A stretch of 64,000 nucleotides of DNA from Candidatus Parcubacteria bacterium (GCA_023132875.1 JAGLXN010000017.1:22142-86141), one strand, 5' to 3'. Numbered from the stretch's first letter, positions 1,182 to 62,637 are shown. Numbers and translations: made by a program. Notes: generated by a model from the letters alone, not told the origin.

Positions 1182-1297
1182 GAATTCGTATAACATGTAA
1201 CGTGTAACTTATAACCTGTAATGCAATTTTTATCACACTCAGGTTACACGTTATACGTTATACGCCAACAATCTAACAATACAACAATTTAATGCTA

Positions 1298-9317: not shown

Positions 9318-10898
9318 ATGTCAATTATTTTAATTACAATATTAATATTATTTCTCATCAAAATTGTCCGTGATAGCTTGTTTTGTGTTTGGCTTTGGCA
9401 GGTGAAAGAATATCGGATAGATCGGATGAAATCTTATTTGAGAGACGAGAAAAGTATTATTTATAAAAATATTAATTATTTATTTGTTTTGATTTTATTT
9501 TTTATTTGCATTTTGGTTCCACAGCCATTCGGGACTATGGAACTAATGATTCTTATTTATTTAACGCTTTTATTTTTTACTTTTACTTTTTACCAAATTT
9601 TAATAGAAATAAAAGATAGAATTTTAAAAAGACCAAAGTTGACTTTTAAGATAATTCTAATATTTTTCATAGAAGCCACCTTTTATTTTTCGTTCTTTGT
9701 ATTTTACTGGATTCCCGCATTCGCGGGAATGACAAGACCTGCGGTCTTGATCCTACTATTACTATTTATTTATCTCATCACTCCTTTTTTAATTGCTACA
9801 ATTATTTTGTTAACAAATCCATTTTTTAATTTCCAAAAAAGAATAATAAAAAAAAAAGCCACCGAAAAAATGAAGGGATTGAAAAAAGTAAAAGTTATCG
9901 GTATTACGGGCAGTTACGGAAAGACAAGCACGAAAGAATTTCTATATGCGATATTGAACCAGAAATATAAAGTTGTAAAAACAGAAGGGAATAATAATAC
10001 GAATATCGGCGTGGCTTATACTGTTTTAAATAAAGTGAGTGATAAATATGATTATTTTATCTGTGAAATGGGCGCTTATAAAATTGGCGAAATCGCAGAA
10101 ATTTGTAAAATAGTAAAACCGGAAGTTGGAATTTTAACAGGAATTAACGAACAGCATATTGATTTATTTGGGTCTATTGAGAATACGGTTAAAGCGAAGT
10201 TTGAATTGATTGAGGCGTTGCCAGAGAACGGATTGGCGGTAATAAATGAAAAATTAAAAAATCAAAATGGAAAATTACAATTTAAAATTAAAAATGTTAA
10301 ATATTTTTCTTTGAACAATGTAAATGATATTAAAGTTTGTCAGGATTATGTAGGGTTTAATTATAAGAACTATAAATTTAAAACTAATCTTCTTGGCAAG
10401 CATTATATAGAAAATATTTTATCTGCTATAATGATAGCAGAATGTTTGGGAATAAGTTTGGATGAAATTGCAAAAGCAGTAGAGAAAATAAAACCGACTG
10501 AATTTATGATAAGAAAATTATACGGTCCAAATAATTCTATTTTTATTGATGACAGTTATAGCGCAAATCCTGATGGCGTAATCGCGGCGCTTGATTATTT
10601 AGATGAAGCGTATCAAGATTATAAAAAAATAATTGTTTTTCCAGGGATAATTGAATTGGGAAACAAGTCAAAAGAAGTGCATCAAAAATTATTTAGTAAA
10701 ATAGATAAAATTTGCGACTTTGCTTATATACTGAATACAGAATACAGAATACAGAATACTAATAACAAATTTGTTTTTGAGAAGGATTTTAATAAAGTGG
10801 CGAGAATGCTGAAAAATAATCTCAACGAAAAATCTGTTGTTCTTTTTGAAAGCCGGGGAGCGGGAGTGGCGATGGGAAAAGTAAAAATAGAAAAATAA
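9318..10898 (+). CDS. MurF-like Mur ligase with an N-terminal polytopic membrane domain of about 190 aa
   Basis: Mur ligase P-loop GITGSYGKTSTKE and C-terminal DDSYSANP signature; the N-terminus is strongly hydrophobic. Confidence 0.7.
   Translation: MSIILITILILFLIKIVRDSLFCVWLWQVKEYRIDRMKSYLRDEKSIIYKNINYLFVLILFFICILVPQPFGTMELMILIYLTLLFFTFTFYQILIEIKDRILKRPKLTFKIILIFFIEATFYFSFFVFYWIPAFAGMTRPAVLILLLLFIYLITPFLIATIILLTNPFFNFQKRIIKKKATEKMKGLKKVKVIGITGSYGKTSTKEFLYAILNQKYKVVKTEGNNNTNIGVAYTVLNKVSDKYDYFICEMGAYKIGEIAEICKIVKPEVGILTGINEQHIDLFGSIENTVKAKFELIEALPENGLAVINEKLKNQNGKLQFKIKNVKYFSLNNVNDIKVCQDYVGFNYKNYKFKTNLLGKHYIENILSAIMIAECLGISLDEIAKAVEKIKPTEFMIRKLYGPNNSIFIDDSYSANPDGVIAALDYLDEAYQDYKKIIVFPGIIELGNKSKEVHQKLFSKIDKICDFAYILNTEYRIQNTNNKFVFEKDFNKVARMLKNNLNEKSVVLFESRGAGVAMGKVKIEK
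9709..9753. repeat. Repeat family B hairpin (GGATTCCCGC-ATTC-GCGGGAATGAC plus AGACC-TGCG-GGTCT) inserted in-frame in the murF-like ORF
   Basis: Palindrome read directly; translates to IPAFAGMTRPAV. Confidence 0.6.
10733..10760 (+). repeat. In-frame heptamer tandem array (GAATACA x3, GAATACT) in the murF-like ORF
   Basis: Seen directly. Confidence 0.7.
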
Positions 10899-12490: not shown

Positions 12491-13519
12491 ATGAATATTA
12501 AAGAAATAACAAATAAATCCCAATGGGAAAATTTTGTTCAAGAAAACAAAGAAAGTACTTTTCTGCAATCTTGGAATTGGGGAGAATTCAATAGAAACAC
12601 AGGAGAAAAAATCTGGCGACTTGGAGTTTTTGACAATGAAGAACTTTTAGCAGTCGCGCTAGTTATAAAAGTAAACGCAAGGAGAGGATCATTTTTATTT
12701 GTTCCGCAGGGACCAATAATAAAGGTATTCAGTATTCAGTATTCAGTATTCAGTATATTAAATGAATTTTTTGATTATTTAAAAGATCTTGGAATAAAAG
12801 AAAGGGTTGGATTTATTCGCGTTAGTCCGATTTTAAAAAATACTGAAGAAAATTTGAATATTTTTGAAAAAGCAGGATTTAGAAACGCGCCGATTCATAT
12901 GATGCACCCAGAAACAACTTGGCTTTTAGATATTACAAAAAGCGAGGATGAAATTTTAAAAGGAATGAGAAAAACGCATAGAAATTTAATTCGTCGCGCG
13001 GCAAAAGAAGATGTTAAAATTATACAAAGCACGGATGAAGAATATCTTAAAGCGTTTTATGATATTCATATGGAAACTGTCCGGCGGCATAAATTTGTCC
13101 CGTTCCCCTATGATTATATAAAGAGCGAAACTGACGCGTTTAAAAACGACGATCAAATAAGCATATTTTCCGCAAAATATAAAGGTGAAATAATTTCATC
13201 CGCTATTATAATATTTTATGGAGAACAAGCTTTTTATCATCATGGCTCATCATCGTCAAAGTATTATAAAATTCCATCATCATATTTAAATCTTTGGGAA
13301 GCAATTAAGGAAGCAAAAAAAAGAGGAAAGAAGAAATTTAATTTTTACGGTATTGTTGAAAATAAGCCGAAACATCCTTGGGCTGGATTGTCAAAATTTA
13401 AAAAAGGATTTGGCGGACACCAAGAGGAACTATTACATTGCCAGGATTTGCCGTTGAATAGAAAATACGCGATTACATGGGTTGTTGAAACAATAAGGAA
13501 AGTTAGAAGAGGATATTGA
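12491..13519 (+). CDS. FemAB-family peptidoglycan interpeptide-bridge peptidyltransferase-like protein
   Basis: N-terminal QSW.WGEF signature region; GNAT-like size. Confidence 0.55.
   Translation: MNIKEITNKSQWENFVQENKESTFLQSWNWGEFNRNTGEKIWRLGVFDNEELLAVALVIKVNARRGSFLFVPQGPIIKVFSIQYSVFSILNEFFDYLKDLGIKERVGFIRVSPILKNTEENLNIFEKAGFRNAPIHMMHPETTWLLDITKSEDEILKGMRKTHRNLIRRAAKEDVKIIQSTDEEYLKAFYDIHMETVRRHKFVPFPYDYIKSETDAFKNDDQISIFSAKYKGEIISSAIIIFYGEQAFYHHGSSSSKYYKIPSSYLNLWEAIKEAKKRGKKKFNFYGIVENKPKHPWAGLSKFKKGFGGHQEELLHCQDLPLNRKYAITWVVETIRKVRRGY
12724..12751 (+). repeat. In-frame heptamer tandem array (GTATTCA x4) in the FemAB-like ORF
   Basis: Seen directly; encodes SIQYSVFSI. Confidence 0.7.
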
Positions 13520-13523
13520 TGGT

Positions 13524-13566
13524 GAATCAGGAATCAGGAATCAGGAATTATGAATTAGGAATTAAG
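13524..13566. repeat. GAAT-core heptamer array (GAATCAG x3, GAATTAT, GAATTAG, GAATTAA) right after the FemAB-like stop
   Basis: Seen directly. Confidence 0.7.
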
Positions 13567-13629
13567 AACTTTCTATTTTTATAAAAATGCTTAGATGTTT
13601 ATTAGAAATGTTTATTGTAATAGATAAAA

Positions 13630-13656
13630 GATTCTGAAACAAGTTTAGAATGACAA
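13630..13656. repeat. Repeat family B hairpin GATTCTGAAACAAGTTTAGAATGACAA
   Basis: Same hairpin as at 61007 and inverted at 60857. Confidence 0.6.
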
Positions 13657-13720
13657 AATTTGTAATTTTTAAAATAAATTCCATAGTTTCATATAACATA
13701 CAATCCATAATTCATGATTC

Positions 13721-14752
13721 ATGATCCGTAATTTCAAGTTTAGAAGAAAAAGAATAAAACCATGGCAGCGAAAACCAAGGATTTTTGCGAGTCACAAACC
13801 TATTTTTTTTAAAAAAAATAAAAGCGGTTCTGCTAAAAATCTTAAAAGGGGATTATTGATAGCGTTTGTTTTTTTTGTCGCGTATTTTATTTTTTTCTCG
13901 GAGTTTTTTATAATTAAAAAAATAGATATAAATGGAAACAAAACCATTTCCAATAAAAACATAGAAAAAATCATAAAAAATGAAAACTCAAATCCGATTT
14001 TAGCAATTTTTCCTGGAAATAATTTTTTTCTTACTAACGAGGAAAAAATAGAAAAAAAACTGCTTAGCGAGTTTTCAGAGATCAAAACAATAACAATTAA
14101 AAAAAAGCTTCCAGATACTATAAAAGCGGAGATTGTAGAAAAAAATCCTCTTATTCTTTGGTGCAGAACTGAAAGCTGTTATTATCTTGACACTGAAGGA
14201 ATAGCTTTTATGGCTGAAAGCAGTGATACAGAAGCATATAAAGACAAAAAATTTATAAAAATTATAGAAGAGGTAAAAATTAAAGAAGAGATAGAAGATG
14301 AATTAGAAAGAGAGAAAGAAGAAAAGGAAACTAAGCCAGTGTTTTTAGATAATATTCAAAATACAATTGATTCTGAAATTTCTGATAATCCAGAGCATGA
14401 TGAAAGAGAAAATGATAAAAAAAATGAAGACAAAAATATCATACTAGAACCAATAAAAATAAATGATAAGATCGCGAATGAAGATTTTATAAATTTTGTT
14501 TTTAAATTAGATAATAGCATTAAAAGCGACACTGATATAAAAATTAAATATTATAAGACAAAGGGAGTAAAAACAAGAGAGATAATCGCGTATTCAGATA
14601 AAAACATAAGAATTTATTTTAATACTGCAGATGACGCGAAATTACAAACAACATATCTAAAAGATTTTATGTCTAAAGGAATTGGTAAAAATGAAATAAA
14701 TACATTAGAATATATATACCTTAAATCTGGAAATAAGATTTTTTATAAATAA
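13721..14752 (+). CDS. ftsQ: FtsQ/DivIB-like cell division protein (TM + POTRA) with an acidic insertion
   Basis: TM segment followed by a POTRA-like pattern I.INGN...LPDTIKAEIVEKNPLILWC. Confidence 0.55.
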   Translation: MIRNFKFRRKRIKPWQRKPRIFASHKPIFFKKNKSGSAKNLKRGLLIAFVFFVAYFIFFSEFFIIKKIDINGNKTISNKNIEKIIKNENSNPILAIFPGNNFFLTNEEKIEKKLLSEFSEIKTITIKKKLPDTIKAEIVEKNPLILWCRTESCYYLDTEGIAFMAESSDTEAYKDKKFIKIIEEVKIKEEIEDELEREKEEKETKPVFLDNIQNTIDSEISDNPEHDERENDKKNEDKNIILEPIKINDKIANEDFINFVFKLDNSIKSDTDIKIKYYKTKGVKTREIIAYSDKNIRIYFNTADDAKLQTTYLKDFMSKGIGKNEINTLEYIYLKSGNKIFYK

Positions 14753-16360
14753 TTGAAATTTAAAATAATTAAAATGAAAAAAATACGAACAAGATTTGCG
14801 CCAAGCCCGACGGGATATCTTCATGTTGGAAGTTTAAGAACTGCGTTATATAATTATCTGTTTGCCAAACATAATAACGGCGATTTTATCCTGCGTATTG
14901 AAGATACGGATAAAGCAAGGTTTGTGGAGGGTTCTATTGAAAATTTAGTGAAAATATTGGACCTAATCGAGCTGAAATATAATGAAGGTGTATTTGTAGA
15001 TAATGACGGAAAAATCTCTCAAAAAGGCAATTTTGGGCCATATATACAATCTGAAAGGCTAGAAATATATAAAAAATATGTTGACAAGCTAATAAAAAAT
15101 GATTATGCATATTTTTGCTTCTGTAGTCAAGAACGGCTGGAAGAAATGAGAAAAGAACAGCAAGCGCAAAAAATGGCTCCTAAGTATGACGGAAAGTGCA
15201 GGGGACTGGATAAAAAAGAAATTCAAAGGCTTCTCGATAAAAAAACTCCCTATGTTGTTCGTCTAAAAACTCCGCAGGAAGGATTTACCGAATTTGATGA
15301 TCTAGTTTATGGAAAAATAAAAATTGAAAACAAGGTAATTGATGATCAAGTTTTGATGAAGTCCGATGGATTTCCAACATATCATTTGGCAAATGTCATT
15401 GATGATCATTTAATGGAAATTTCACATGTCATTCGGGGAGAGGAATGGCTTCCATCAACTCCAAAGCATGTTATTTTATATAAAGCGTTTGGGTGGGATA
15501 TGCCAGAGTTTGCTCATCTACCACTTCTTCTTAATCCCGATAAAAGCAAATTGAGTAAACGTCAGGGCGATGTCGCAGTAGAAAATTATCTAAAAAAAGG
15601 ATATTTACCAGAAGCATTGTTAAACTTTATATTATTACTTGGTTGGAATCCTAAAACTGAAGAAGAAATTTTTTCATTTGATGAAATGATAAAAAGATTT
15701 GATTTGTCTGGAGTTAATAAAACGGGAGCTATTTTCAGTGTAGAAAAACTGGATTGGATAAATGGAACGTATATTCGTTGTATGCCGCTTGAAGAACTTA
15801 CCGAACTTTGTGTTCCATATTTGATTGAGGCAGGATTGATAGAAAGAATTATGAATTATGAATTAAGAATAAAGAATAAAATTCAAAATTCAAAATTCTC
15901 CTCCCGAGGCGGATCAGCCTTGGGCTGGAAGATTCAAAATTCTGATAAGGAAGTAGATTTTGATTATTTAAAAAAAGTTATTGCGCTTGAACAGGAACGG
16001 ATGAAGAAATTGAGTGAGATAGGGGAGCTGGTAAAATTTATCTTTGTTGATAAATTAGATTATGATAAAGATTTACTGGTATGGAAAAAAATGAGCTTTG
16101 AAGAGGTAAAAAATAATTTAGAATTAGCTTATGATGAATTAGAAAAAATAGACGAGAAAGATTTTGTGAAAAATAATTTGGAAGAAGTTTTGAGAAATTT
16201 AATGGGACGAGAGGGGATTAAGACGGGAGAATTGTTATGGCCCTTGCGAGTAGCTTTGACTGGCCTGAAAGGATCACCAGGACCGTTTGAAGTGGCAAGC
16301 GTTTTGGGAAAGGGAAAAGCTTTAAAGAGGATCAGAAAGGTAATTGAATTATTGAGATAA
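14753..16360 (+). CDS. gltX: Glutamyl-tRNA synthetase
   Basis: HIGH (PSPTGYLHVGS) and KMSKS-like (KLSKR) motifs; contains an in-frame repeat insertion. Confidence 0.9.
   Translation: MKFKIIKMKKIRTRFAPSPTGYLHVGSLRTALYNYLFAKHNNGDFILRIEDTDKARFVEGSIENLVKILDLIELKYNEGVFVDNDGKISQKGNFGPYIQSERLEIYKKYVDKLIKNDYAYFCFCSQERLEEMRKEQQAQKMAPKYDGKCRGLDKKEIQRLLDKKTPYVVRLKTPQEGFTEFDDLVYGKIKIENKVIDDQVLMKSDGFPTYHLANVIDDHLMEISHVIRGEEWLPSTPKHVILYKAFGWDMPEFAHLPLLLNPDKSKLSKRQGDVAVENYLKKGYLPEALLNFILLLGWNPKTEEEIFSFDEMIKRFDLSGVNKTGAIFSVEKLDWINGTYIRCMPLEELTELCVPYLIEAGLIERIMNYELRIKNKIQNSKFSSRGGSALGWKIQNSDKEVDFDYLKKVIALEQERMKKLSEIGELVKFIFVDKLDYDKDLLVWKKMSFEEVKNNLELAYDELEKIDEKDFVKNNLEEVLRNLMGREGIKTGELLWPLRVALTGLKGSPGPFEVASVLGKGKALKRIRKVIELLR
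15846..15948. mobile_element. Repeat family A element (GAAT heptamers plus GC-rich core CCTCCCGAGGCGGATCAGCCTTGGGCTGG) inserted in-frame in gltX
   Basis: Core matches the copies at 36568, 50467 and 63030; encodes MNYELRIKNKIQNSKFSSRGGSALGWKIQNS. Confidence 0.65.
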
Positions 16361-16405: not shown

Positions 16406-16675
16406 TTATGGAATTCTGATTTCCATTTCTCTTTCAATCATTATTAATCCTTTTGGATCATCTTCAATTATTCCTATTGCTTCTATTATTTTCATCATTG
16501 CTCCATAAAATTTATTTTCTTTTATTAGGATTACTATTTCCTCTTTTAATTTTTGTATTTCTTCACTCTCTGCTTTTTCCGGGTCCATGACTTCATAAAA
16601 GCCATCTCTGGCTAAAATAGGAAGTTGCAATTCCCTTGCCATCTGTTCTCCTCGTGCTGTTAATTTAACTCTCAT
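16406..16675 (-). CDS. Hypothetical protein
   Basis: 89-aa ORF, no recognisable motif. Confidence 0.35.
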   Translation of the reverse strand: MRVKLTARGEQMARELQLPILARDGFYEVMDPEKAESEEIQKLKEEIVILIKENKFYGAMMKIIEAIGIIEDDPKGLIMIEREMEIRIP

Positions 16676-16756
16676 CTGATCTTATCCTCCTTTTTGTTTT
16701 GTTGTTATCATTATAGTAATGTATAAAAATATGTCAAGATGATTAATTCCAAAATC

Positions 16757-19328: not shown

Positions 19329-19459
19329 ATTTGTAATAAAATTAATTATTTATAAGCCAATAACCATGCAATAATTCTTACTAATTTCATTATAACACCT
19401 TTTGTAACACTTGACTATACAATTTTAACATTTTTATATTATTAGTCAATAATAATTAC

Positions 19460-19666
19460 TCATAAAAACATTTTCGCTCTTTTTTCTGCTTCTTTTGAAT
19501 TTAGTCTCAAATAAGAAAAAGCAGATATTGGATTGTTTTCGCTATGACCTAAAATAAATTGAATATCTTTAACTGTTCCGGATTTATCAAGAATATTATG
19601 AGCTTTTGCATGTCGGAATGAATGCGGGCTTATTTTTCTCTCAATCCCCGCTTCTCTGACAAATAT
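19460..19666 (-). pseudogene. Remnant of a tyrosine recombinase/integrase (C-terminal catalytic box only; no N-terminus, no start codon)
   Basis: Minus-strand translation VREAGIERKISPHSFRHAKAHNILDKSGTVKDIQFILGHSE... gives the HxxRH and LGH boxes; an upstream in-frame stop precedes it. Confidence 0.65.
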
Positions 19667-19758: not shown

Positions 19759-20160
19759 AGTTTTTTCTATCCCATATATTTTGGCAAGATCAAAGTACTC
19801 CCCATTAACCCAAAGCTTTACTGTCACATATATTATTTCGTCTCCAGGTATGTTAATAACATTTTCTAAATCACCATTATCATTTTTAGAAAACATTACT
19901 TCCATATGGACACTATTTTTATTAAGTATCTCCCCATAGGTTTTCCTAGTGCTAATTTCTGATATTTTAGCATGTATATTTTGGTTTTCAGAGAATTTAC
20001 CAGACACTTCTATAATAGAATACAACATTGTTCTATTGTCAGTTTTCTCAACTCTTATTGTAAGAGGAAGATCACTGAATTCCTCTTTGTATTTTATTGC
20101 ATCGTTGTTACTGTCTATCCATACCATTACCACGATTGCTAAAATTGCAATAATAGTCAC
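19741..20160 (-). CDS. Hypothetical membrane-anchored protein
   Basis: N-terminal TM segment, 139 aa. Confidence 0.4.
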   Translation of the reverse strand: MTIIAILAIVVMVWIDSNNDAIKYKEEFSDLPLTIRVEKTDNRTMLYSIIEVSGKFSENQNIHAKISEISTRKTYGEILNKNSVHMEVMFSKNDNGDLENVINIPGDEIIYVTVKLWVNGEYFDLAKIYGIEKTVEVQT

Positions 20161-33309: not shown

Positions 33310-33428
33310 TTTGTTTTTTAAAAATAATAGCCCGAAATAAATTCAGGCCGTCAACAAAATATCAATTATTAAAACTCTTAAAAAATAAAATTCTCATATT
33401 ATTATATTTATATCCTTGTTTTATATTT

Positions 33429-33472
33429 AACAATATAGCAATGGAACAATACAACAATTTAAATTACAATTC
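33429..33472. repeat. Repeat family C (ACAATACAACAAT motif cluster)
   Basis: AACAATATAGCAATGGAACAATACAACAATTTAAATTACAATTC. Confidence 0.5.
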
Positions 33473-34738: not shown

Positions 34739-34744
34739 AGAATT

Positions 34745-34847
34745 ATATTGTTAAATTGTTGTATTGTTAAATTGTTGTATTGTTTTGCCTATTGCTTATT
34801 CAACGATTTAATCCAACAATACAGCAATGTAACAATATAACAATAAT
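34745..34847. repeat. Repeat family C, large palindromic copy (ATTGTTGTATTGTT x2 ... AACAATACAGCAATGTAACAATATAACAAT) upstream of secY
   Basis: Seen directly. Confidence 0.6.
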
Positions 34848-34853
34848 TTTTAT

Positions 34854-35285
34854 TTATATGTTTCTTATTTCCCCGCCCGCTTTCTTGATTTTTTCCTCGG
34901 CATTTTTAGATATTGCACATTCTTCAATAATAATTTTTTTAGTCAAATCTCCATTTCCAAGGATTTTAACTCTCGGCTTTATTTTGCTTATCAACCCCTT
35001 TTTTAATAAAATTTTAGCGCTTATAATATCCCCGTCTTGAAAATTATTTTCCAAAGCAGAAACATTAACTACATTATTTTTATCATATATACTCTTAAAT
35101 CCCCTTAGTTTCGGAGTTCTTCTAAAAAGCGGAGTCTTAGTTCCTTCAAAGCTTTTTCCCTTGCCTCCGCCAGACCTTGCTTTCTGTCCTTTTGTTCCGC
35201 GAGTAGCAGTAGTCCCATGGGGTCCGCCGCGACCGACTCGCTTCTTTGCTTTTTTCTTGCTCGGTTTTAATTGATGTAATTGCAT
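34854..35285 (-). CDS. rplO: 50S ribosomal protein L15
   Basis: Gly/Arg-rich N-terminus RVGRGGPHGTTATRG. Confidence 0.9.
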   Translation of the reverse strand: MQLHQLKPSKKKAKKRVGRGGPHGTTATRGTKGQKARSGGGKGKSFEGTKTPLFRRTPKLRGFKSIYDKNNVVNVSALENNFQDGDIISAKILLKKGLISKIKPRVKILGNGDLTKKIIIEECAISKNAEEKIKKAGGEIRNI

Positions 35286-35373
35286 AAAATCATTTTAACA
35301 TATAAACATACTAACATTTTAACATACTAACATTTATTGTTAAAATATTTGATTAAGCAAATAATATAACAAT

Positions 35374-36489: not shown

Positions 36490-36545
36490 AAAAATATTTT
36501 GTTATAAAATTCTTAAAGTTTCTAATTTCCAAAATAATTTGAAAA

Positions 36546-36615
36546 TTTTGTCATTGAAAATTGATTGCCGGTCCAAGGCTGGTCCGCCTCGGGCGGAAAA
36601 ATTAGAAATTGAAAA
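36546..36615. mobile_element. Repeat family A copy (TTTTGTCATTGAAAATTGATTG-CCGGTCCAAGGCTGGTCCGCCTCGGGCGG-AAAAATTAGAAATT) in the rplR-rplF spacer
   Basis: Near-identical over about 70 nt to the copy at 50443..50512. Confidence 0.65.
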
Positions 36616-36616
36616 T

Positions 36617-37165: not shown

Positions 37166-37211
37166 AATTTAAAATGTTTATATGTTTATATGATTATATG
37201 ATTATATGATT

Positions 37212-37601: not shown

Positions 37602-37607
37602 ATTTTT

Positions 37608-37705
37608 GAATATTGAATTATGAATTTAGAATTACGAATTACGAATTACGAATCGACGATATTTTACAATCTTCATGATTCATAATTCATAATTCATAAT
37701 TCATC
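37608..37705. repeat. GAAT-core heptamer arrays in inverted orientation (GAATTAC x3 ... ATAATTC x3) in the rpsH-rpsN spacer
   Basis: Seen directly. Confidence 0.7.
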
Positions 37706-37706
37706 T

Positions 37707-38499: not shown

Positions 38500-38563
38500 A
38501 AGATCATTTTTAATATTTTAATATTTTAACAATATCATACTAATGTTAAAACGTCAGTGCTAT

Positions 38564-38890: not shown

Positions 38891-38936
38891 AATCTTATAA
38901 CTTTCTACTTTATAAACTTTATAAACTTTTAACTTG

Positions 38937-39308: not shown

Positions 39309-39379
39309 AAATATTAATTATTTTTATTGTTTATTTTCAAGAAATATATTTCTAAACCAACTTTATGAACTTTACAACT

Positions 39380-39643
39380 TTATGAACTTTTTACTTCTTT
39401 CGCTATCCACTTCTTTTCCTTGCTTATCGGCTTGATTTCAATAATTTTAACCTTATCTCCAATTTTAAATTTATTCTCTGCATCATGCGCTTTGTATTTC
39501 TTGCTTACTTTATATTTCTTTCTGTATATTGGATGCATTTTTAACCTATCAACCTTAACTACAACCGTCTTATCCATCTTGTCGCTTATAACAACTCCGA
39601 TCTTCCCTTTTGTATTATTTTTTTCCTTATTGTCTTTATTCAT
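39380..39643 (-). CDS. rpsQ: 30S ribosomal protein S17
   Basis: OB-fold S17 sequence. Confidence 0.85.
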
Positions 39644-39857: not shown

Positions 39858-39885
39858 TTTTACCTTGAATTATGAAATTATAATC

Positions 39886-39975
39886 TTAGTTTACTTAGTG
39901 TAAATATTAGTTTTTTTGTGTTTAATATAGAAAACACGAAAGAAACTAATGTTCACACGAAAGAAACTAATTTTG
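39886..39975. repeat. Repeat family D palindrome (TTAGTGTAAATATTAGTTT ... ACACGAAAGAAACTAATGTTCACAC) in the rpmC-rplP spacer
   Basis: Copies also at 43437 and 44832. Confidence 0.6.
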
Positions 39976-39984
39976 AAAAATTAT

Positions 39985-40395: not shown

Positions 40396-40421
40396 AAAAT
40401 CATTTTAACATATAAACATAA

Positions 40422-41932: not shown

Positions 41933-42052
41933 TTATTGTTATATTGTTCTATTGCTAAATTGTTATGCATGGCACATATTCACAATTATATTATTATATT
42001 ACAACTATTGAATTACTATGCATAACAATAGAACAATAGAGCAATACAACAA
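41933..42052. repeat. Repeat family C large palindrome (TTATTGTTATATTGTTCTATTGC ... GCATAACAATAGAACAATAGAGCAATACAACAA) between rpsS and rplB
   Basis: Seen directly. Confidence 0.6.
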
Positions 42053-42053
42053 T

Positions 42054-43413: not shown

Positions 43414-43436
43414 AGTTTTAAGGTTATGCTATTTCA

Positions 43437-43520
43437 ATTTTAGTTTGTTTAGTGTAGATATTAGTTTTTTTAGTGTCTTCTTCATAAAACACGAAGGAAA
43501 CTAATATTCACACTAATTAA
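43437..43520. repeat. Repeat family D palindrome in the rplW-rplD spacer
   Basis: TTAGTGTAGATATTAGTTT ... AAACTAATATTCACACTAA. Confidence 0.6.
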
Positions 43521-43531
43521 ACGAAGCGCTT

Positions 43532-44805: not shown

Positions 44806-44831
44806 AGTTTTTTAAATCGCAATTTTTTAAC

Positions 44832-44910
44832 TTTAGTTTTTTTAGTGTAAATATTAGCTTCTTCTGTGTTTTCTATAGAAGACACTAACAAAACTGATAT
44901 TTACACTAAA
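44832..44910. repeat. Repeat family D palindrome in the rpsJ-rplC spacer
   Basis: TTTAGTGTAAATATTAGC ... CTAACAAAACTGATATTTACACTAAAG. Confidence 0.6.
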
Positions 44911-45087
44911 GCAAACCAATCCAGATAGCAAAGTTTAATATAAACAACAAAAAAATCAGATAATTAAACCAATCTTAACCGTTATTATCCGATTTATAAA
45001 TTGGCTAATTCAGTATGCTTAAGACTATTATTTAACCGGAAATTTCTGACAAAGTCCAGCAATAAGCACTTAAACTAGCATATAAAC

Positions 45088-45178
45088 AAATTGTTATATT
45101 GTCAAGTTATTATGCATAGCATAATAACACGCAATGTTACCTGACAATATAACAATTTAGCAATTTGACAATTTAATA
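45088..45178. repeat. Repeat family C palindrome (TTGTTATATTGTCAAG ... CCTGACAATATAACAA) just downstream of rpsJ
   Basis: Seen directly. Confidence 0.55.
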
Positions 45179-46805: not shown

Positions 46806-47164
46806 TTTATAAGTCTCCTTTTAAAAACTAAGATTAGAAAGCTTATTACTCTTGAAACTTAGTTTATAAGATTAATTTTTAAAAATTAGATACTTTAAGT
46901 TAAATTTTAAACAACATATACATATTAGCACATACAAAAAATTTGGCAAGTGCTTAGGGCTTAAGTAAAAATAACTCATTCACTTCACATTCAAATTCAC
47001 ACCATCTAAACTTTTAAAAATTTTCAAAATAGCTTGCTATTCTTCAATTTTTTAAAAGCTTATCTATCGCAAATTTAAACGCGAATTAAACAACTTATTT
47101 TTACTTAAGTCCTTAGATTTATTATCTAAATTATAATACACATTATTAATACTTTTGTCAAATA

Positions 47165-47482: not shown

Positions 47483-47837
47483 ATTATAATTTCTAAAATA
47501 ATTTTAATTGCTTAAGCACTTATACAGACTAGCACAAATATTTTTTCTGTCAACCCCGCTTCTAAATTTTACAAAATAGTATAACGAGAGTAAACTATCT
47601 CAAGTAATTAAGATAATTGGTATTAATCAAACGGTTATGTAAAATTTAGAACGGGGTTAAGTGTTTTTATCAGAATTTTATTAGACCAAGACAGACTCTT
47701 AAAAAAAGAGAAAATTATATAGCTTCGCTTTTATAAAAAATCTGTTTAACAGCTAAATTGCGTATGCGCAAAAGGCTTAACTCAGAAGAATGGAACCAAT
47801 ATTATAGTATATAAAACCTATTCAATACCACAAAAAA

Positions 47838-49811
47838 CTATCTAACATTTTCCCCTTTTAAATATAAGCCCAATTCATAGTCCGTAACAATTATTATATC
47901 TTCCCATTTATAGCCGTTGGAGATAAATACATCGGCGCTTGTTATCCATCTTTTATTTCCGTTTTCTATTAAATATACTTTGGGATCGGAGCCTTTTAAA
48001 AGTTTTTTGTCAAAATTGAAATCAGAACTTGTAACATCTTTTCCGTTTGAATACGAATTCAATTCATAATCCGTAACAATTATTATGTCTTCCCATTTAT
48101 AGCCATTTGAAATAAACACGGCAGGGCTTGTTATCCATCTTTTATTTTCGTTTTCTATTAAATACACTTCAGGACTTGATCCTTTTATTAAACTCCCGTC
48201 TGGCTTTAAATCAAAACTTGCTTTTATATTTTCTCCGTTGGGATATAATTCAAGCTCTAAATCTGTAACAATTACTATATCTTCCCATTTATAGCCATTT
48301 GAAATAAACACGGCAGGGCTTGTTATCCATCTTTTATTTTCGTTTTCTATTAAATAGACCCTGCTATCTTTCAGCGATTTTAGAAGAGAATCATTTTTAT
48401 ATTTATTGCTTTTAGCAATTTCTGCAGAAATAGAAAAAGAATATTTATTAATATTATTTCCAAAACCGGAAGTTTTTTTATGGCTTATTGGAATTATTGT
48501 AACAGAAGAGATATTTCTGTCCGAGCAGGAAACATAAAAATCAGAATTTTGCTTATCGTCCAAATTCAATTCGCCGATTTTTTTTGTTCCGTCCTCATAA
48601 GATATAACATAAGAAACAGAAAATTGCCCTATATCTTGTCCGTCAAAATTAATTTTAATTTTATTTTCATTTGCGCAATTTTTTTCCGCTATATCAAGTT
48701 CATAATATCCATTACTCCAATCTTTAATAGAATCATTTATATTTATTGTAACGACGGAGTTTAATTCATAAACATCTTTTGGCTGGATGTGAAAATTTTC
48801 ATAATTAAGATTTTTATTTTGATAGCTATATTTGCTATCCAATGATGTTCCGTTTATATAATTAGTTATAACCCAGTCTTTAAATACAGATTGAAAGGTG
48901 TCATTTTTATAATATAAATCTGATAACGCCTTATTAATGCTTTGAATTCCAACTTTATTATTATCTACCATTCTTTTAAATATTTCTTTCCCGAAACGAT
49001 CGGCTAAGTACTGGGAAAATAAGTTAACGGAAGAATAATCGTATATTTTATTCTGCCACTCCGTAAGCGAATCAACCGGATCAATTTCAAAATTTTTAAC
49101 TCTTGCCCTTAAATTGCTGCCCATATAATCATCGTCATAGCCTATCGCCGTAGAAGCATATTCCGACCTTGCTTCATTCAGCCATATATCGTCTGTAATA
49201 TTTCTTAATTTAGTTTTATGATACCAAGTGATCATATGCTGAAATTCATGCGCGAGAAAACTTTTTATTCTATTATCGCCTATAAAAGATATATTCAAAT
49301 AAACCATCTCTCTTTCGTTGCTTCTTTCGCCGGCTACTTCATCTTTTCTGTATTCATCGCTTGGATTGAAATATCCCCCGATATTTTCTTTTGTCTTTGT
49401 AAAAAGAATTGTAATTTTGCTGTCATTGTCAATCCCTGGATTCCATTCATATCCAAATGCTTCTCTTGTTTTTGGGTACACCGTATTGTCAAAATCTAAA
49501 ACTAAAGAATTTAAATGCGAATTAAATTCTAATTTGGAATTTCTTGATAAATTATTATAATAATCGTCTTCAACATAAAAATATGCGTTTACTCCGATTT
49601 TTTTTAAAGTCGCCGTTATTTCCAAACGCTCGCTGGAATCATAAGAAAGATCAACTAAAAATACTTTATTTTCTTCAAGCTCATTCGCTTTTGCGCTTGG
49701 AATTGCAGTTAATGAAATAATAAATAATAAAACAATACAAAAAAACAGCTTTAATCCTAAAACCGCCAACTCACCCCTCCTGTTAATATTTCTATTTTTT
49801 ATAAATCTCAT
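47838..49811 (-). CDS. Secreted/membrane-anchored putative zinc metalloprotease (HExxH) with three C-terminal tandem repeats of about 62 aa
   Basis: N-terminal hydrophobic anchor; HEFQHMITWYH motif; 3 x VYLIENxNKRWITSxxVFISNGYKWEDIxIVTDxEL. Confidence 0.6.
   Translation of the reverse strand: MRFIKNRNINRRGELAVLGLKLFFCIVLLFIISLTAIPSAKANELEENKVFLVDLSYDSSERLEITATLKKIGVNAYFYVEDDYYNNLSRNSKLEFNSHLNSLVLDFDNTVYPKTREAFGYEWNPGIDNDSKITILFTKTKENIGGYFNPSDEYRKDEVAGERSNEREMVYLNISFIGDNRIKSFLAHEFQHMITWYHKTKLRNITDDIWLNEARSEYASTAIGYDDDYMGSNLRARVKNFEIDPVDSLTEWQNKIYDYSSVNLFSQYLADRFGKEIFKRMVDNNKVGIQSINKALSDLYYKNDTFQSVFKDWVITNYINGTSLDSKYSYQNKNLNYENFHIQPKDVYELNSVVTININDSIKDWSNGYYELDIAEKNCANENKIKINFDGQDIGQFSVSYVISYEDGTKKIGELNLDDKQNSDFYVSCSDRNISSVTIIPISHKKTSGFGNNINKYSFSISAEIAKSNKYKNDSLLKSLKDSRVYLIENENKRWITSPAVFISNGYKWEDIVIVTDLELELYPNGENIKASFDLKPDGSLIKGSSPEVYLIENENKRWITSPAVFISNGYKWEDIIIVTDYELNSYSNGKDVTSSDFNFDKKLLKGSDPKVYLIENGNKRWITSADVFISNGYKWEDIIIVTDYELGLYLKGENVR
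47871..48360. repeat. Three tandem direct repeats of about 188 bp (high nucleotide identity) encoding the C-terminal protein repeats
   Basis: CAATTCATAGTCCGTAACAATTATTATATCTTCCCATTTATAGCC ... recurs at about 47871, 48058 and 48249. Confidence 0.8.
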
Positions 49812-50305: not shown

Positions 50306-50442
50306 TATTAAGACTTGCGCGTTTCACAATTCGGAGCGTCCTAACTATTTTAAACTTTGTTTTGAATTTGTTATTTTGGTCATTGTAATTTATTTGTTAT
50401 TTGTGATTTTGAATTTATGATTTATCCAGTTGTTTAAAAATT

Positions 50443-50512
50443 TAGTCATTGGAAATTGATTGTCAACCCAAGGCTGATCCGCCTCGGGCGGAAAAATTAA
50501 AAATTTTATAAT
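50443..50512. mobile_element. Repeat family A copy (TTTAGTCATTGGAAATTGATTG-TCAACCCAAGGCTGATCCGCCTCGGGCGG-AAAAATTAAAAATT) downstream of the ATPase gene
   Basis: About 70-nt match to 36546..36615. Confidence 0.65.
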
Positions 50513-50533
50513 GAGCTAACACTTACTTTTTGT

Positions 50534-53047: not shown

Positions 53048-53293
53048 AATAAATTAATTTTATAATTTTTAAATTTTTAAATTTTTAAAATAAATCTTAA
53101 TTTTTAATTTTTAAACACGAAATTAAAATGTTTATTAAATTAAGTAACAGATTAGATATAGCAATTTAAAGATCTTGAACTAAATTCAGAGCCTGTCCTG
53201 AATTCAGTTCAGGAATGACGGATGCTTCGCATCTCGTAATTAAAAATTTAGTCATTAAAAATTATTTAAAAATTATAAAATTTAAAAATTCTA

Positions 53294-58836: not shown

Positions 58837-58945
58837 ATTTTTAACTTAAACTAATAAAATTTTATTTAAAATAAACCTCTTAATTTCTAACCCGCGTAAA
58901 CACTAAAGAATATCACAATTTTACAAAAATGTCAATACTTGAAAT

Positions 58946-58985
58946 TATTAACAATTTAACAATACAACAATGAAACAATGCAATT
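58946..58985. repeat. Repeat family C copy (ATTAACAATTTAACAATACAACAATGAAACAATGC)
   Basis: Seen directly; lies between the exchanger stop and the giant-protein operon start. Confidence 0.5.
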
Positions 58986-60856: not shown

Positions 60857-61032
60857 TGTCATTCTGAACTCGTTTCAGAATCTTTCTGTTGCTACATTGA
60901 ACAATCCTATAAAGCATCAAACGCTTTACTAAATTGAAAATACAATAATTGTAATATGATTCTTGGCGTTGTTGCAAATAGGATAAATTATACCTAACAG
61001 AAAATAGATTCTGAAACAAGTTCAGAATGACA
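60857..61032. mobile_element. 176-bp MITE-like element flanked by inverted family-B hairpins (TGTCATTCTGAACTCGTTTCAGAATC ... GATTCTGAAACAAGTTCAGAATGACA)
   Basis: Both terminal hairpins seen directly in opposite orientation. Confidence 0.6.
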
Positions 61033-62118: not shown

Positions 62119-62319
62119 TTTAACATATAAATAATTGCTATTTCATTTCTTTGGACGAGTCCTTAGTTTCATAAATTGTTCTATAAAATTATTCTGCATG
62201 TATTTGCAATCTGTTTCTTATTCTCCTATTCGCGCGAATTAGAGAATAGAAAACAAGAAATAAATTTTTTTATTGTTTTATTGTGCTAATTATGATATAG
62301 TTATTAAGGAGGGAATAAG

Positions 62320-62637
62320 TTGGCTCTAACCGTAGTAATTGAAAATTATACAAAACCAAAAAAAATAGTAACATTGGAAGATTTTCGTGGTTCAAAAAAC
62401 GATAAAAATATATGCGATCATTGCGGGAGAAAGGTTGATAAGGTTGATGATGAGAACAAACAAGAGCACGAATGTAAAACATGCCATAACAAATTTACGG
62501 GAAGAATATTGACATGTGTAAACCCAAGATGTAATCCAGTAATCTTTTTTTGGGAAGTAAAGGGTTTAACGGTAACAACATGTTCTCAATGTGGATTGAA
62601 TAATTGTAAAGAAGTTCTTCGCAATGTTGAAAACTAA
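62320..62637 (+). CDS. Small cysteine-rich (10 Cys, paired CxxC) zinc-ribbon-like protein with a canonical strong SD and TTG start
   Basis: AAGGAGGG 6 nt upstream of TTG at 62320; CDHC...CKTC...CVNPRC...CSQC. Confidence 0.45.
   Translation: MALTVVIENYTKPKKIVTLEDFRGSKNDKNICDHCGRKVDKVDDENKQEHECKTCHNKFTGRILTCVNPRCNPVIFFWEVKGLTVTTCSQCGLNNCKEVLRNVEN

What the first reader, a model, noticed from the sequence alone, without database searches (positions are those of the whole stretch)
34745..34847. ACAATACAACAAT motif clusters (family C) as large palindromes at operon boundaries
ATTGTTGTATTGTT x2 facing AACAATACAGCAATGTAACAATATAACAAT lies upstream of secY. Related clusters are at 1263..1293 (upstream of parA), 33429..33472 (upstream of gmk), 41933..42052 (rpsS/rplB), 45088..45178 (after rpsJ) and 58946..58985 (upstream of the giant-protein operon). 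The recurrence of one 13-mer upstream of unrelated operons suggests a shared regulator-binding site or promoter module in an SD-less genome.
Basis: seen in the sequence. Interest (0 to 1): 0.5.

Follow-up and report, generated by a model that had tools for sequence, protein, structure and literature searches.

The report
Palindromic spacer cassettes with 8-base repeats
The repeated ACAAT motif is real, but it is probably not a regulator's docking site: it is the building block of small hairpin-forming DNA cassettes that come and go between genes in one group of tiny (CPR) bacteria, and whose gene-proximal half probably serves as the ribosome landing strip in a genome that lacks the usual ribosome-binding signal.

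Summary
ACAATNNNACAAT occurs 17 times against 0.32 expected, and 16 of the 17 are intergenic. The unit is an 8-bp repeat, AACAATNN, usually in blocks of four.

On the gene strand, (ATTGYNNN)4 starts 0-9 nt after a stop codon. The inverted (RCAATNNN)4 ends 8 nt before the next ATG. Together they give 110-130-bp hairpins (z -5.7 to -8.2).

Three of the six sites lie inside the S10-spc ribosomal-protein operon, not at operon boundaries. The "gmk" site is the 3' tail of secY.

In relatives with 86-96% SecY identity, the same cassette sits in at least 10 different spacers in a patchy pattern. It has an inverted loop in one pair of genomes and a nested insertion in another. A relative at 85% identity has none.

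This behaviour fits a REP/MITE-like dispersed repeat better than a conserved operator. The start-proximal arm is preferentially kept.

Solo AACAATNN arrays abut start codons in the sense orientation in Bacteroidota, other CPR lineages and viruses: 12:0 and 14:0. The genome is SD-poor.

Best reading: a mobile-like spacer cassette whose G-free arm acts as an SD-independent leader. Function is inferred, not shown. The closest descriptions are TAACTGA heptamer arrays and the paired octamer sites of Geobacter.

The parts
34816..34844 (-). 5' arm of the rplO|secY cassette. On the gene (-) strand it reads ATTGT TAT ATTGT TAC ATTGC TGT ATTGT. It begins 9 nt after the rplO stop codon (rplO occupies 34854-35285).
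34784..34815 (-). Loop of the rplO|secY cassette (TGGATTAAATCGTTGAATAAGCAATAGGCAAA). It has no convincing promoter. The version is shared with L003 and differs from L004, L127 and L128.
34747..34783 (-). 3' arm: five ACAATNNN units on the gene strand. With the 5' arm it forms a roughly 40-bp stem (-29.7 kcal/mol, z -5.7).
34739..34746 (-). 8-nt tail ATAATTCT between the last ACAAT unit and the secY ATG (34738). The same tail, WTAATTNT, precedes rpsS, rplO and rplT in relatives.
33430..33458 (-). Solo (ATTGYNNN)4 array 5 nt after the secY stop codon, inside the secY 3' tail. It is 26/29 identical to the 5' arm at 34816-34844. It is also present in L004, L128, L129 and L130, and absent from L003, L127 and L006.
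42025..42053 (-). 5' arm of the rplB|rpsS cassette, starting 0 nt after the rplB TAA stop codon.
41964..42024 (-). Interior of the rplB|rpsS cassette. It holds an inner stem (TATGCATAG / CCATGCATA) and a promoter-like TTCAAT(42012-42007)-16-TATAAT(41990-41985) followed by TGTGAATAT. The interior is homologous to those in L003, L128, L004, L127 (inverted), L131 and L132 (inverted).
41935..41963 (-). 3' arm ACAAT TTA GCAAT AGA ACAAT ATA ACAAT, ending 8 nt before the rpsS ATG (41926). The whole spacer folds at -47.4 kcal/mol, z -8.2.
45144..45172 (-). 5' arm (four units) of a truncated cassette, 6 nt after the rpsJ stop codon.
45090..45143 (-). Interior with a perfect inner hairpin (GTTATTATGC / GCATAATAAC, 45106-45128), and a shortened two-unit 3' arm (45090-45102). 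About 285 nt of other palindromes follow before the rplC start codon.
58951..58984 (-). Solo array ATTGC ATTGT TTC ATTGT TGT ATTGT TAA ATTGT, starting 0 nt after the TGA stop codon of the Na+/Ca2+ exchanger gene (58985-60007). It lies just upstream of a sigma-70-like promoter (TTGACA 58935-58930, TGATATTCT ending at 58907) for the 1123-aa gene.
1268..1288 (+). Solo leader array ACAAT CTA ACAAT ACA ACAAT, ending 3 nt before the parA ATG (1292).
62264..62284 (-). Weak 2-3-unit ACAAT array in an intergenic spacer. Doubtful member.
20027..20039 (-). Two ACAAT units inside an unannotated 128-aa ORF. Probably a chance match.

Best explanation
Family C is a lineage-specific family of REP/MITE-like palindromic spacer cassettes, each 110-130 bp long.

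Anatomy of one copy:
- stop codon;
- four 8-bp units ATTGYNNN;
- an inner stem, TATGCATRGCA;
- a variable loop of 10-50 nt, which sometimes looks like a promoter;
- the mirror-image inner stem;
- four units RCAATNNN;
- an 8-nt tail, WTAATTNT;
- ATG.

Shown:
- The cassettes are dispersed over many intergenic spacers of a small Paceibacteria (CPR) clade.
- They are gained, lost, inverted and interrupted on a short evolutionary time scale.
- They are absent from a slightly more distant relative whose spacers are 11-77 nt.

Inferred:
- Inside operons the cassettes are transcribed and fold into 30-45-bp hairpins. The base of each hairpin brings the upstream stop codon and the downstream start codon together.
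- The start-proximal arm, (AACAAUNN)4, contains no G and cannot fold on itself. In this SD-poor genome it serves as the translation-initiation leader.
- In read-through transcripts the leader is masked by the 5' arm. It is exposed when a ribosome terminating at the adjacent stop codon melts the base of the stem (translational coupling). It is also exposed when the 5' arm has decayed, or when transcription starts in the loop.

How the cassettes spread is unknown. Candidates are a transposase acting in trans, or recombination and gene conversion between copies.
For: Motif and anatomy:
- The motif is real, has an 8-nt period and is intergenic.
- The hairpins are significant on both strands.
- The arms are complementary beyond the motif itself: 64% of variable positions pair, against 53% in permutations (z 4.5).

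Dispersal and turnover:
- The same cassette, with homologous interiors, occurs at L4|L23, L23|L2, L2|S19, S3|L16, L16|L29, L6|L18, L18|S5, S5|L15, L15|SecY, L35|L20 and S10|L3. Presence is patchy among genomes with 86-96% SecY identity.
- L006 (85% identity) has none. Its 18 spacers total 577 nt, against 1365 nt for the same junctions in the window.
- The 67-nt loop of L004 is the exact reverse complement in L127.
- Another palindrome is nested inside the cassette in L005 and L130.

Regular geometry:
- The array starts 0 nt after the stop codon in 11 of 25 cases.
- The last unit lies exactly 8 nt before the ATG in 13 of 31 cases.
- Array size is modal at four units.

Leader reading:
- The 3' arm is kept where the 5' arm is degenerate or missing in about 10 spacers, against 1 opposite case.
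- The genome is SD-poor, and G is depleted upstream of start codons.
- Solo AACAATNN arrays in other genomes end within 12 nt of a start codon in the sense orientation 12 times against 0 for the antisense orientation. In viral contigs, where no palindromes exist at all, the count is 14 against 0.

Against a single specific regulator:
- Many sister families share the same architecture.
- A 19-nt leader of another family is repeated exactly upstream of three genes.

Published analogues:
- TAACTGA heptamer arrays lie 1 nt upstream of start codons lacking an RBS, including inside r-protein operons (PMC4679880).
- Geobacter has paired sites of four octamers each (PMC2700814).
Against: - No transcript, translation or binding data exist. 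Every RNA-level step is inferred.
- Family C stems show no sense-over-antisense excess of G.U pairs (88 against 84).
- The window/L003 comparison shows no compensatory changes. Selection on the hairpin as RNA is therefore not demonstrated.
- No transposase with matching ends was found, and no clear target-site duplication.
- The very regular 0-nt and 8-nt junctions are odd for random MITE insertion.
- A sister family places the T/G-rich arm (ATGTTNNN) next to start codons. The 'A-rich, G-free leader' rationale is therefore not general.
- The same 4 x 8 hairpin with the same polarity recurs in distant and even GC-rich lineages: 27 to 1, seen for example in L047 and L114. This could mean a conserved trans-acting factor that this model leaves out.
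Confidence: 0.5

Rival explanations
1. The cassettes are purely selfish or neutral palindromic repeats (MITE/REP-like) with no role for the host. They are merely tolerated in spacers. Their orientation and junction regularities follow from insertion into tiny spacers and from the fixed polarity of the element.
For: - Presence is patchy, the cassettes occupy many sites, and there is nesting and loop inversion.
- No compensatory changes are seen, and there is no sense-strand G.U bias.
- For an ATTGY-first palindrome, any adjacent start codon automatically sees ACAAT on its sense strand.
- L006 manages without the cassettes.
Against: - The start-proximal arm is preferentially retained (about 10 to 1).
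- Solo arrays in viral contigs have no inverted partner at all (0 of 120), yet still show 14 to 0 sense orientation at start codons.
- The 8-nt distance to the ATG is constant across different genes.
- The arrays occupy the exact ribosome-binding region of essential, highly expressed genes.
Confidence: 0.25
2. The arrays are double-stranded-DNA binding sites for a global regulator or nucleoid protein. This is the first reader's idea, and also the guess made for the paired octamer sites of Geobacter. Four 8-bp units per site would bind an oligomer, and inverted pairs would allow looping around a promoter.
For: - Array size is fixed at four units.
- Some loops or flanks look like promoters.
- The same 4 x 8 module keeps its polarity in distant, even GC-rich genomes, which hints at sequence-specific recognition.
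- The Geobacter authors proposed IHF/HU sites.
Against: - Most copies lie between cistrons of one operon.
- Sites are not conserved at orthologous positions.
- Loop orientation is not fixed, at roughly 6 forward to 4 reverse.
- Solo arrays obey a strand rule relative to start codons.
- An 8-bp period puts successive sites on different faces of the helix (an inference from DNA geometry).
- At least six sister families with other motifs share the same architecture.
Confidence: 0.1
3. The cassettes are invertible promoter switches (invertons). The arms would be recombination sites, and the loop a promoter that is flipped ON or OFF for the downstream gene.
For: - The 67-nt loop is exactly inverted between L004 and L127. 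It is 100% identical, within flanks that are 94-97% identical.
- The loop is also reversed in L132.
- The loop carries TTCAAT-16-TATAAT and TGTGAATAT motifs.
Against: - No invertase gene lies next to any copy. The window holds only a 65-aa integrase fragment, about 15 kb away.
- Many copies have short loops without any promoter.
- The cassettes sit inside constitutive r-protein operons.
- Inversion between 40-bp inverted repeats can occur by ordinary recombination or template switching (established knowledge).
- Both orientations were seen only between genomes, never within one population.
Confidence: 0.05
4. The arrays are targets of a single-strand nucleic-acid-binding protein, such as ribosomal protein S1 or a cold-shock-domain protein, that regulates translation. 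One 7-9-nt unit would be bound per OB-fold domain. Binding to one arm would open the hairpin.
For: - The strand rule at start codons.
- The 7-9-nt periods seen in all families.
- The modal size of four units.
- ATTGY/RCAAT resembles the Y-box core ATTGG/CCAAT (from my own knowledge).
- S1, Csp and CsrA were proposed as binders of the TAACTGA arrays.
Against: - Nothing here tests binding.
- No cold-shock-domain gene lies in the window, though the window is only 64 kb of an 831-kb scaffold.
- The many different unit sequences would need many binders, or one unspecific binder.
Confidence: 0.1

Closest known systems
TAACTGA heptamer direct-repeat arrays of marine Beggiatoaceae, Cyanobacteria and some Bacteroidetes (MacGregor 2015, PMC4679880)
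   Same: - Short tandem arrays of 2-6 units, intergenic, in 'forward' orientation and ending a few nt upstream of start codons.
- Mostly without an SD.
- Also found internal to ribosomal-protein operons.
- Occasionally found in reverse orientation right after a stop codon.
- Absent from close relatives, which have shorter spacers.
- Function unknown; a role in translation is suspected.
   Different: - The unit here is an 8-mer, AACAATNN, with two free positions, not an exact heptamer.
- Arrays here have a modal size of four units.
- They are mostly organised as inverted pairs forming long hairpins with homologous interiors. Only one inverted repeat was reported in BOGUAY.
- The host is a CPR bacterium.
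Paired 'class 1-3 global regulator sites' of Geobacter metallireducens (Aklujkar 2009, PMC2700814)
   Same: - Pairs of sites on opposite strands at variable distance.
- Each site consists of four tandem octanucleotide repeats, GTTGCTYN (compare ATTGYTNN here).
- Sister classes have 8-9-mers and heptamers.
- The sites are intergenic, including between genes of one operon (proBA).
- They are absent from the sister species.
   Different: - The unit sequence and the GC content differ.
- The Geobacter authors interpreted the sites as IHF/HU binding sites and noted IS elements inserting at a fixed distance. Neither point was tested here.
- No relation to start codons was described.
REP/BIME repetitive extragenic palindromes
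   Same: - Extragenic imperfect palindromes present in many copies.
- Often found between genes of an operon and close to stop codons.
- Form hairpins in mRNA.
- Lineage-specific.
   Different: - REPs are 20-40 bp long and carry a GTAG or CGTC tag (PMC3733652). These cassettes are 110-130 bp, start with ATTGY, and have arms made of 8-bp tandem units.
- No RAYT transposase was seen.
MITEs (miniature inverted-repeat transposable elements)
   Same: - Small and non-coding.
- Terminal inverted repeats.
- Many non-homologous sites.
- Presence/absence polymorphism.
- Nesting.
   Different: - No target-site duplication and no autonomous partner were identified.
- The junctions with stop and start codons are unusually exact.
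- The arms are internally periodic.
Cyanobacterial STRR heptamer repeats
   Same: Short-period tandem arrays confined to intergenic DNA and able to form hairpins when inverted (from my own knowledge; mentioned in the papers listed).
   Different: - The period is 7 nt and the units are G/C-containing.
- The arrays are long.
- No fixed four-unit module or start-codon geometry has been described.

Membership tests
REP/BIME | Short (20-40 bp) extragenic imperfect palindrome in many copies | tested here: inconclusive
   The cassettes are extragenic, palindromic and multi-copy. However, the whole element is 110-130 bp with 30-45-bp arms.
REP/BIME | GTAG or CGTC tetranucleotide tag at one end (PMC3733652) | tested here: not met
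   The ends read ATTGY...RCAAT in every copy.
REP/BIME | Associated RAYT (IS200/IS605-like) transposase in the genome | not testable with these tools
   Only 64 kb of the 831-kb scaffold is available, plus 10-kb flanks. No RAYT was noticed among the annotated genes.
MITE | Small non-coding element bounded by terminal inverted repeats | tested here: met
MITE | Copies at non-homologous sites, with presence/absence polymorphism among close relatives | tested here: met
   At least 10 spacers are occupied in a patchy matrix, and there are empty compact sites in L006.
MITE | Target-site duplication flanking each copy | tested here: inconclusive
   The flanks are TAA / TTAA-like. They coincide with the stop codon and extend the palindrome, so no clean duplication can be called.
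MITE | Autonomous IS with the same ends encoding a transposase | tested here: not met
   No ATTGY...RCAAT pair brackets a transposase-like ORF in any fetched locus. The gene-bracketing pairs found simply flank ordinary genes. This covers fetched loci only, not whole genomes.
Start-codon-proximal short direct-repeat arrays (TAACTGA type) | Tandem short units, intergenic, in sense orientation, ending within a few nt of a start codon | tested here: met
   - Window genes parA, secY and rpsS.
- Relatives.
- Other genomes, 12 to 0.
- Viral contigs, 14 to 0.
Start-codon-proximal short direct-repeat arrays (TAACTGA type) | Downstream genes lack a Shine-Dalgarno site | tested here: met
   5 of 69 genes have an SD 4-mer, the same as in the control window. 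None of the array-preceded genes has one.
Start-codon-proximal short direct-repeat arrays (TAACTGA type) | Unit is the heptamer TAACTGA | tested here: not met
   The unit is the octamer AACAATNN.
Transcription-factor operator / regulon motif | Sites lie in promoter regions of several operons and are conserved at orthologous positions | tested here: not met
   Three of six sites are inter-cistronic. Orthologous spacers gain, lose or swap the element.
Transcription-factor operator / regulon motif | A cognate DNA-binding regulator exists | not testable with these tools
   No binding data, and only a partial genome.
Inverton (invertible promoter) | Inverted repeats flank a segment found in both orientations | tested here: met
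   L004 against L127, an exact 67-nt inversion, and L132. This is seen only between genomes.
Inverton (invertible promoter) | Functional promoter inside, and a site-specific recombinase nearby | tested here: inconclusive
   Some loops have promoter-like hexamers, but the scan is not above background overall (65 against 51 +/- 7). No recombinase gene lies next to any copy; the only one is an integrase fragment at 19.4-19.6 kb.
Intrinsic terminator | G+C-rich stem followed by a U tract | tested here: not met
   The scan finds none at the family C sites. The only terminator-like site nearby is 33329-33349.
Known structured RNA (Rfam) | Match to a curated covariance model | tested here: not met
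   Only tRNAs pass the gathering threshold. Below threshold there are only generic miRNA-hairpin hits.

The most novel reading that the evidence does not exclude
The 4 x 8-nt ATTGYTNN / NNARCAAT hairpin is a conserved cis-element shared by CPR bacteria and Bacteroidota, and in solo form by their viruses. It works as a bacterial coupling or shunt cassette for SD-independent translation. The stem base places the upstream stop codon next to the downstream start codon, so that terminating ribosomes re-initiate across the hairpin. Possibly this is gated by a single-strand-binding factor (S1 or cold-shock type) that reads one unit per domain.
Probability: 0.12. Interest if true: 0.8.

Novelty: new variant of a known kind. 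Interest (0 to 1): 0.5.

Why it matters
How ribosomes choose start codons in the large bacterial groups that make little use of Shine-Dalgarno pairing (Bacteroidota, many CPR lineages) is still open, especially for internal cistrons of operons.

Here a compact CPR genome has filled almost every spacer of its essential ribosomal-protein operon with hairpin cassettes. The gene-proximal half of each cassette is a G-free periodic leader placed at a fixed distance from the ATG. The same leader motif sits flush with start codons in unrelated SD-poor bacteria and in viruses.

If the leader and coupling role is real, these cassettes are portable translation-initiation modules. They would be a ready-made experimental handle on SD-independent initiation.

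If the role is not real, they are still a clear case of REP/MITE-like invasion of a streamlined CPR genome, where such elements have hardly been described. They also link two scattered and unexplained literature reports: the TAACTGA arrays and the Geobacter octamer pairs.

Tried and rejected
- **Known RNA families.** Rfam at gathering threshold over the whole window, and at E-value threshold over 33.2-50.6 kb, found nothing beyond tRNAs and generic sub-threshold miRNA-hairpin hits.
- **Promoter and terminator scan.** The scan of 33.2-45.2 kb gave 65 promoter-like sites against 51 +/- 7 expected, which is not informative in this AT-rich DNA. It found no terminators at the family C sites.
- **Sense versus antisense folding.**
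  - Across all 37 co-directional spacers the sense strand is more stable (25 against 12, P about 0.01).
  - For the family C spacers the result is mixed, and G.U counts are equal (88 against 84).
  - I therefore dropped this as evidence for RNA-level selection.
- **Compensatory changes.** I looked for them between the window and L003/L128 arms by eye. There were none that convinced me, and some mismatches are conserved (ATTGC opposite ACAAT).
- **More full cassettes.** The metagenome scan returned only two loci, too few for covariation statistics.
- **Transposase partner.** I looked for an autonomous element bracketed by the arrays and found none.
- **Binding-protein candidate.** I looked for a cold-shock-domain or other small nucleic-acid-binding protein in the window and found none.
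- **The 'A-rich leader' idea as a general rule.** This is weakened because the ATGTT family places a T/G-rich array next to start codons.
- **Orientation statistics for palindromic copies.** I discarded these as uninformative, because an ATTGY-first palindrome reads the same on both strands. Only the solo arrays carry weight.
- **Other identities considered and rejected on sequence:** DnaA boxes, parS, IHF consensus, DNA uptake sequences, CRISPR, and Rho rut sites (the C in each unit follows A, not a pyrimidine).

Full report
**1. Observation**

The motif is far above chance:
- ACAATACAACAAT with up to 2 mismatches gives 28 hits against 3.6 expected.
- ACAATNNNACAAT gives 17 hits against 0.32 expected.
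- Distances between ACAAT copies cluster only at 8, 16 and 24 nt.

The true unit is therefore an 8-mer, AACAATNN. Eleven arrays were found. Sixteen of the 17 unit pairs are intergenic, although only 14.2% of the window is intergenic (P = 4e-13).

**2. Host and gene context**

Pfam confirms the flanking genes: SecY, L15, Gmk, S19, L2, L3, S10, ParA and a Na+/Ca2+ exchanger. The window belongs to an 831-kb metagenomic scaffold of a Parcubacteria/Paceibacteria (CPR) bacterium.

The genome is SD-poor. Five of 69 genes have an SD 4-mer at -20..-3, the same as in a control window, and G is depleted upstream of start codons.

**3. Anatomy on the gene strand**

- An array (ATTGYNNN)4 begins 0-9 nt after the stop codon of rplO, rplB, rpsJ, secY and the exchanger gene.
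- In three spacers (rplO|secY, rplB|rpsS, rpsJ|rplC) an inverted array (RCAATNNN)n follows. It ends 8 nt before the next ATG for secY and rpsS.
- parA has only the ACAAT array, 3 nt before its ATG.
- The three pairs fold into long hairpins of -29.7, -47.4 and -31 kcal/mol (z -5.7 to -8.2). The fold is equally good on the opposite strand, as expected for palindromes.
- No Rfam family matches.

The '33429' site is the 3' tail of secY. It lies upstream of a G+C-rich hairpin with a U tract (33329-33349) that is conserved in all relatives.

**4. Comparative evidence**

I fetched the orthologous S10-spc-secY region from eight relatives with 85-96% SecY identity. A pattern scan added two more loci.

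- *One homologous element.* The cassette reads TAA-(ATTGYNNN)3-4-ATTGTTATGCATAGCA...loop...TGCYATGCATA-(ACAATNNN)4-WTAATTNT-ATG.
- *Many sites.* It occupies L4|L23, L23|L2, L2|S19, S3|L16, L16|L29, L6|L18, L18|S5, S5|L15, L15|SecY, L35|L20 and S10|L3. The pattern is patchy and genome-specific.
- *Swapped content at one site.* At rplO|secY, close relatives carry family C with loop A, family C with loop B, family C with loop B inverted, a different 8-mer family (AAACATNT/ATGTTNAN), an unrelated 264-nt spacer, or nothing.
- *A relative without cassettes.* L006 (85% identity) has none, and its spacers are 11-77 nt. Over the same 18 junctions its spacers total 577 nt, against 1365 nt in the window.
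- *Inversion.* The 67-nt loop of L004 is the exact reverse complement in L127, within flanks that are 94-97% identical.
- *Nesting.* In L005 and L130 another palindrome (GTCATTCTGAA...TTCAGAATGAC) is inserted inside the cassette.

This is how a dispersed REP/MITE-like repeat behaves. It is not how a conserved operator behaves.

**5. Regularities that go beyond a random selfish element**

- Array size is modal at four units (31 of 63).
- The array starts 0 nt after the stop codon in 11 of 25 cases. The last unit lies exactly 8 nt before the ATG in 13 of 31 cases, across different genes.
- The start-proximal arm stays intact where the 5' arm is degenerate or absent in about 10 spacers (perhaps 7-8 independent events), against one clear opposite case.
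- The arms pair beyond the shared motif: 64% of variable positions are complementary, against 53% in permutations (z 4.5).
- On the other hand, there is no sense-strand excess of G.U pairs (88 against 84), and no compensatory change in the few orthologous comparisons. Selection on the stem as RNA is therefore not shown.

**6. The wider picture**

The window is full of sister families with 7-9-nt periods. Their units include ATGAATT, AATCATAT, ATGTTNNN, TAACNNN, CACTGA-type, ACTAA-type and TTTTAAAT. Density is 3.42 arrays per kb in intergenic DNA against 0.29 per kb in coding DNA. A 19-nt leader of the ATGTT family is repeated exactly in front of three genes.

Of the 80 titled records, 44 are Bacteroidota and 13 are CPR. 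Judged from my own knowledge of how many species each phylum contributes to the collection, this looks like an over-representation, but I did not test it. In these loci:
- Twenty-seven arrays have an ATTGY partner upstream, and one has it downstream.
- Solo arrays end within 12 nt of a co-oriented start codon 12 times. The reverse orientation does so 0 times.
- After stop codons the reverse orientation dominates, 11 to 2.

*Viral contigs.* None of the 120 arrays has an inverted partner. The start-codon rule still holds, 14 to 0 within 12 nt and 27 to 1 within 30 nt. This removes the objection that the rule is only a by-product of palindrome geometry.

*Other CPR lineages.* The same 4 x 8 hairpin occurs several times per 8 kb in GC-rich CPR genomes (L047 Peribacteria, L114). 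One Uhrbacteria genome (L062) has the opposite polarity.

**7. Literature**

- MacGregor (2015, PMC4679880) described TAACTGA heptamer arrays. They are mostly intergenic and in forward orientation, with the largest class ending 1 nt upstream of start codons. They rarely come with an RBS. They occur inside r-protein operons, and once in reverse orientation just after a stop codon. They are absent from close relatives with shorter spacers. Suggested binders were S1, Csp and CsrA, and the function is unknown.
- Aklujkar et al. (2009, PMC2700814) described 24 inverted pairs of sites in Geobacter metallireducens. Each site is four tandem octamers, GTTGCTYN. There are sister classes of 8-9-mers and heptamers. 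The authors guessed that these are IHF/HU sites.
- I found no description of such elements in CPR.

**8. Interpretation**

*Shown:* family C is a dispersed, rapidly turning-over palindromic cassette with periodic arms, confined to spacers, in an SD-poor genome.

*Inferred:*
- The cassette is transcribed within operons and folds.
- Its G-free (AACAAUNN)4 arm plus 8-nt tail is the initiation region of the downstream gene.
- The 5' arm masks that region until a ribosome terminating at the abutting stop codon opens the base of the stem. That would be translational coupling.
- Decay of the 5' arm, or a promoter in the loop, also frees the leader.

*Alternatives I cannot exclude:*
- a purely selfish element (0.25);
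- a double-stranded-DNA-binding regulator (0.1);
- a single-strand-binding translational regulator (0.1);
- an inverton (0.05).

**9. Caveats**

- All cross-genome ORF calls use ATG starts only and a length cut-off.
- The taxonomic enrichment rests on record titles and on my own knowledge of collection composition.
- No expression or binding data exist for any of these organisms.

Noticed in passing
window 37602-37706, 37166-37211, 35291-35336, 38508-38529, 38907-38929, 39358-39390, 13523-13568 with 13706-13725, 1187-1264, 53058-53290: At least eight other families of 7-9-nt tandem arrays lie right after stop codons or right before start codons, and many are inverted pairs. Units include ATGAATT/ATTCGTA, AATCATAT, ATGTTNNN, TTAAAATA, AAAGTTTAT, GAATCAG, TAACNNN and TTTTAAAT. 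Density is 3.42 per kb intergenic against 0.29 per kb coding.
   Followed up: partly
window 35286-35304, 40396-40414, 62111-62129 (- strand): The 19-nt leader TATATGTTAAAATGATTTT is repeated exactly three times, each copy directly upstream of a start codon (rplO, rplP and the gene ending at 61051). It contains out-of-frame AUGs every 8 nt.
   Followed up: partly
window 8284-8318, 10728-10759, 12725-12756, 15846-15898, 63079-63111: Near-perfect heptamer arrays (ATACTCA, ATACAGA, GTATTCA, GAATTAT/AAAATTC, TATTTGG; 3-5 copies) lie inside long ORFs. This is unusual for coding DNA. It recalls the intragenic TAACTGA arrays reported in Beggiatoaceae.
   Followed up: no
window 60858-61031, 32709, 13600-13650; L005 and L130 L23|L2 spacers: There is another dispersed palindrome family with ends GTCATTCTGAA...TTCAGAATGAC. 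In two relatives it is found nested inside a family C cassette.
   Followed up: partly
window 36490-36616 and 50400-50533 (- strand): A module of about 60 nt, TTTTTCCGCCCGAGGCGGAyCAGCCTTGG...CAATCAATTTyCAATGAC, is repeated in two unrelated spacers: rplF|rplR, and the spacer downstream of the 837-aa gene.
   Followed up: no
window 39858-39984, 43414-43531, 44806-44920: A TTAGTGT.../...ACACTAA...ACTAA palindrome family occupies three further r-protein spacers. The 373-nt rpsJ|rplC spacer holds three different palindromes in a row.
   Followed up: no
window 33329-33349 (- strand): The G+C-rich hairpin with U tract (GGCCTGAATTTATTTCGGGCT + ATTATTTTT) is conserved in all relatives between secY and the next gene. 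It is probably the terminator of the spc/secY transcript, or a leader of the next gene.
   Followed up: partly
window 46806-47164 and 47483-47837: Two spacers of about 355 nt lie upstream of EF-Tu. Each has a TTGACA-17-TATAAT promoter, and each folds far better on the sense strand (-92.9 against -53.2 and -83.0 against -66.6 kcal/mol). No Rfam family matches.
   Followed up: no
window 19440-19640 (- strand) and about 18300: There is a 65-aa C-terminal fragment of a tyrosine recombinase (Phage_integrase, E 2.9e-7) with no intact gene. It lies next to the point where gene orientation converges and GC skew changes sign, which may be the replication terminus or dif region.
   Followed up: partly
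window 46806-46822, 16676-16695, 62300-62319: A few genes do carry a strong SD: AAGGAG before EF-Tu, AAGGAGG before the 89-aa ORF at 16406-16675, and AAGGAGGG before the + strand ORF at 62320-62637. The anti-SD therefore probably exists but is rarely used.
   Followed up: no
window 47881-48356: A 189-bp tandem repeat (2.5 copies, 82% identity) lies inside the 657-aa ORF at 47838-49811.
   Followed up: no
L062 1754-1820 and 2652-2726: An Uhrbacteria genome (54% GC) has the opposite polarity, (ACAATNNA)3-4 - CCAGTCAGCTGACTGG - (ATTGTNNN)4, twice within 1 kb. This is the only exception to the ATTGY-first rule among the hits.
   Followed up: partly
L154 and L161 (viral contigs): A phage leader combines an AACAATCAAACAATTA array with a canonical AAGGAGG SD site 8 nt before the ATG. 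The array can therefore coexist with SD-dependent initiation.
   Followed up: no
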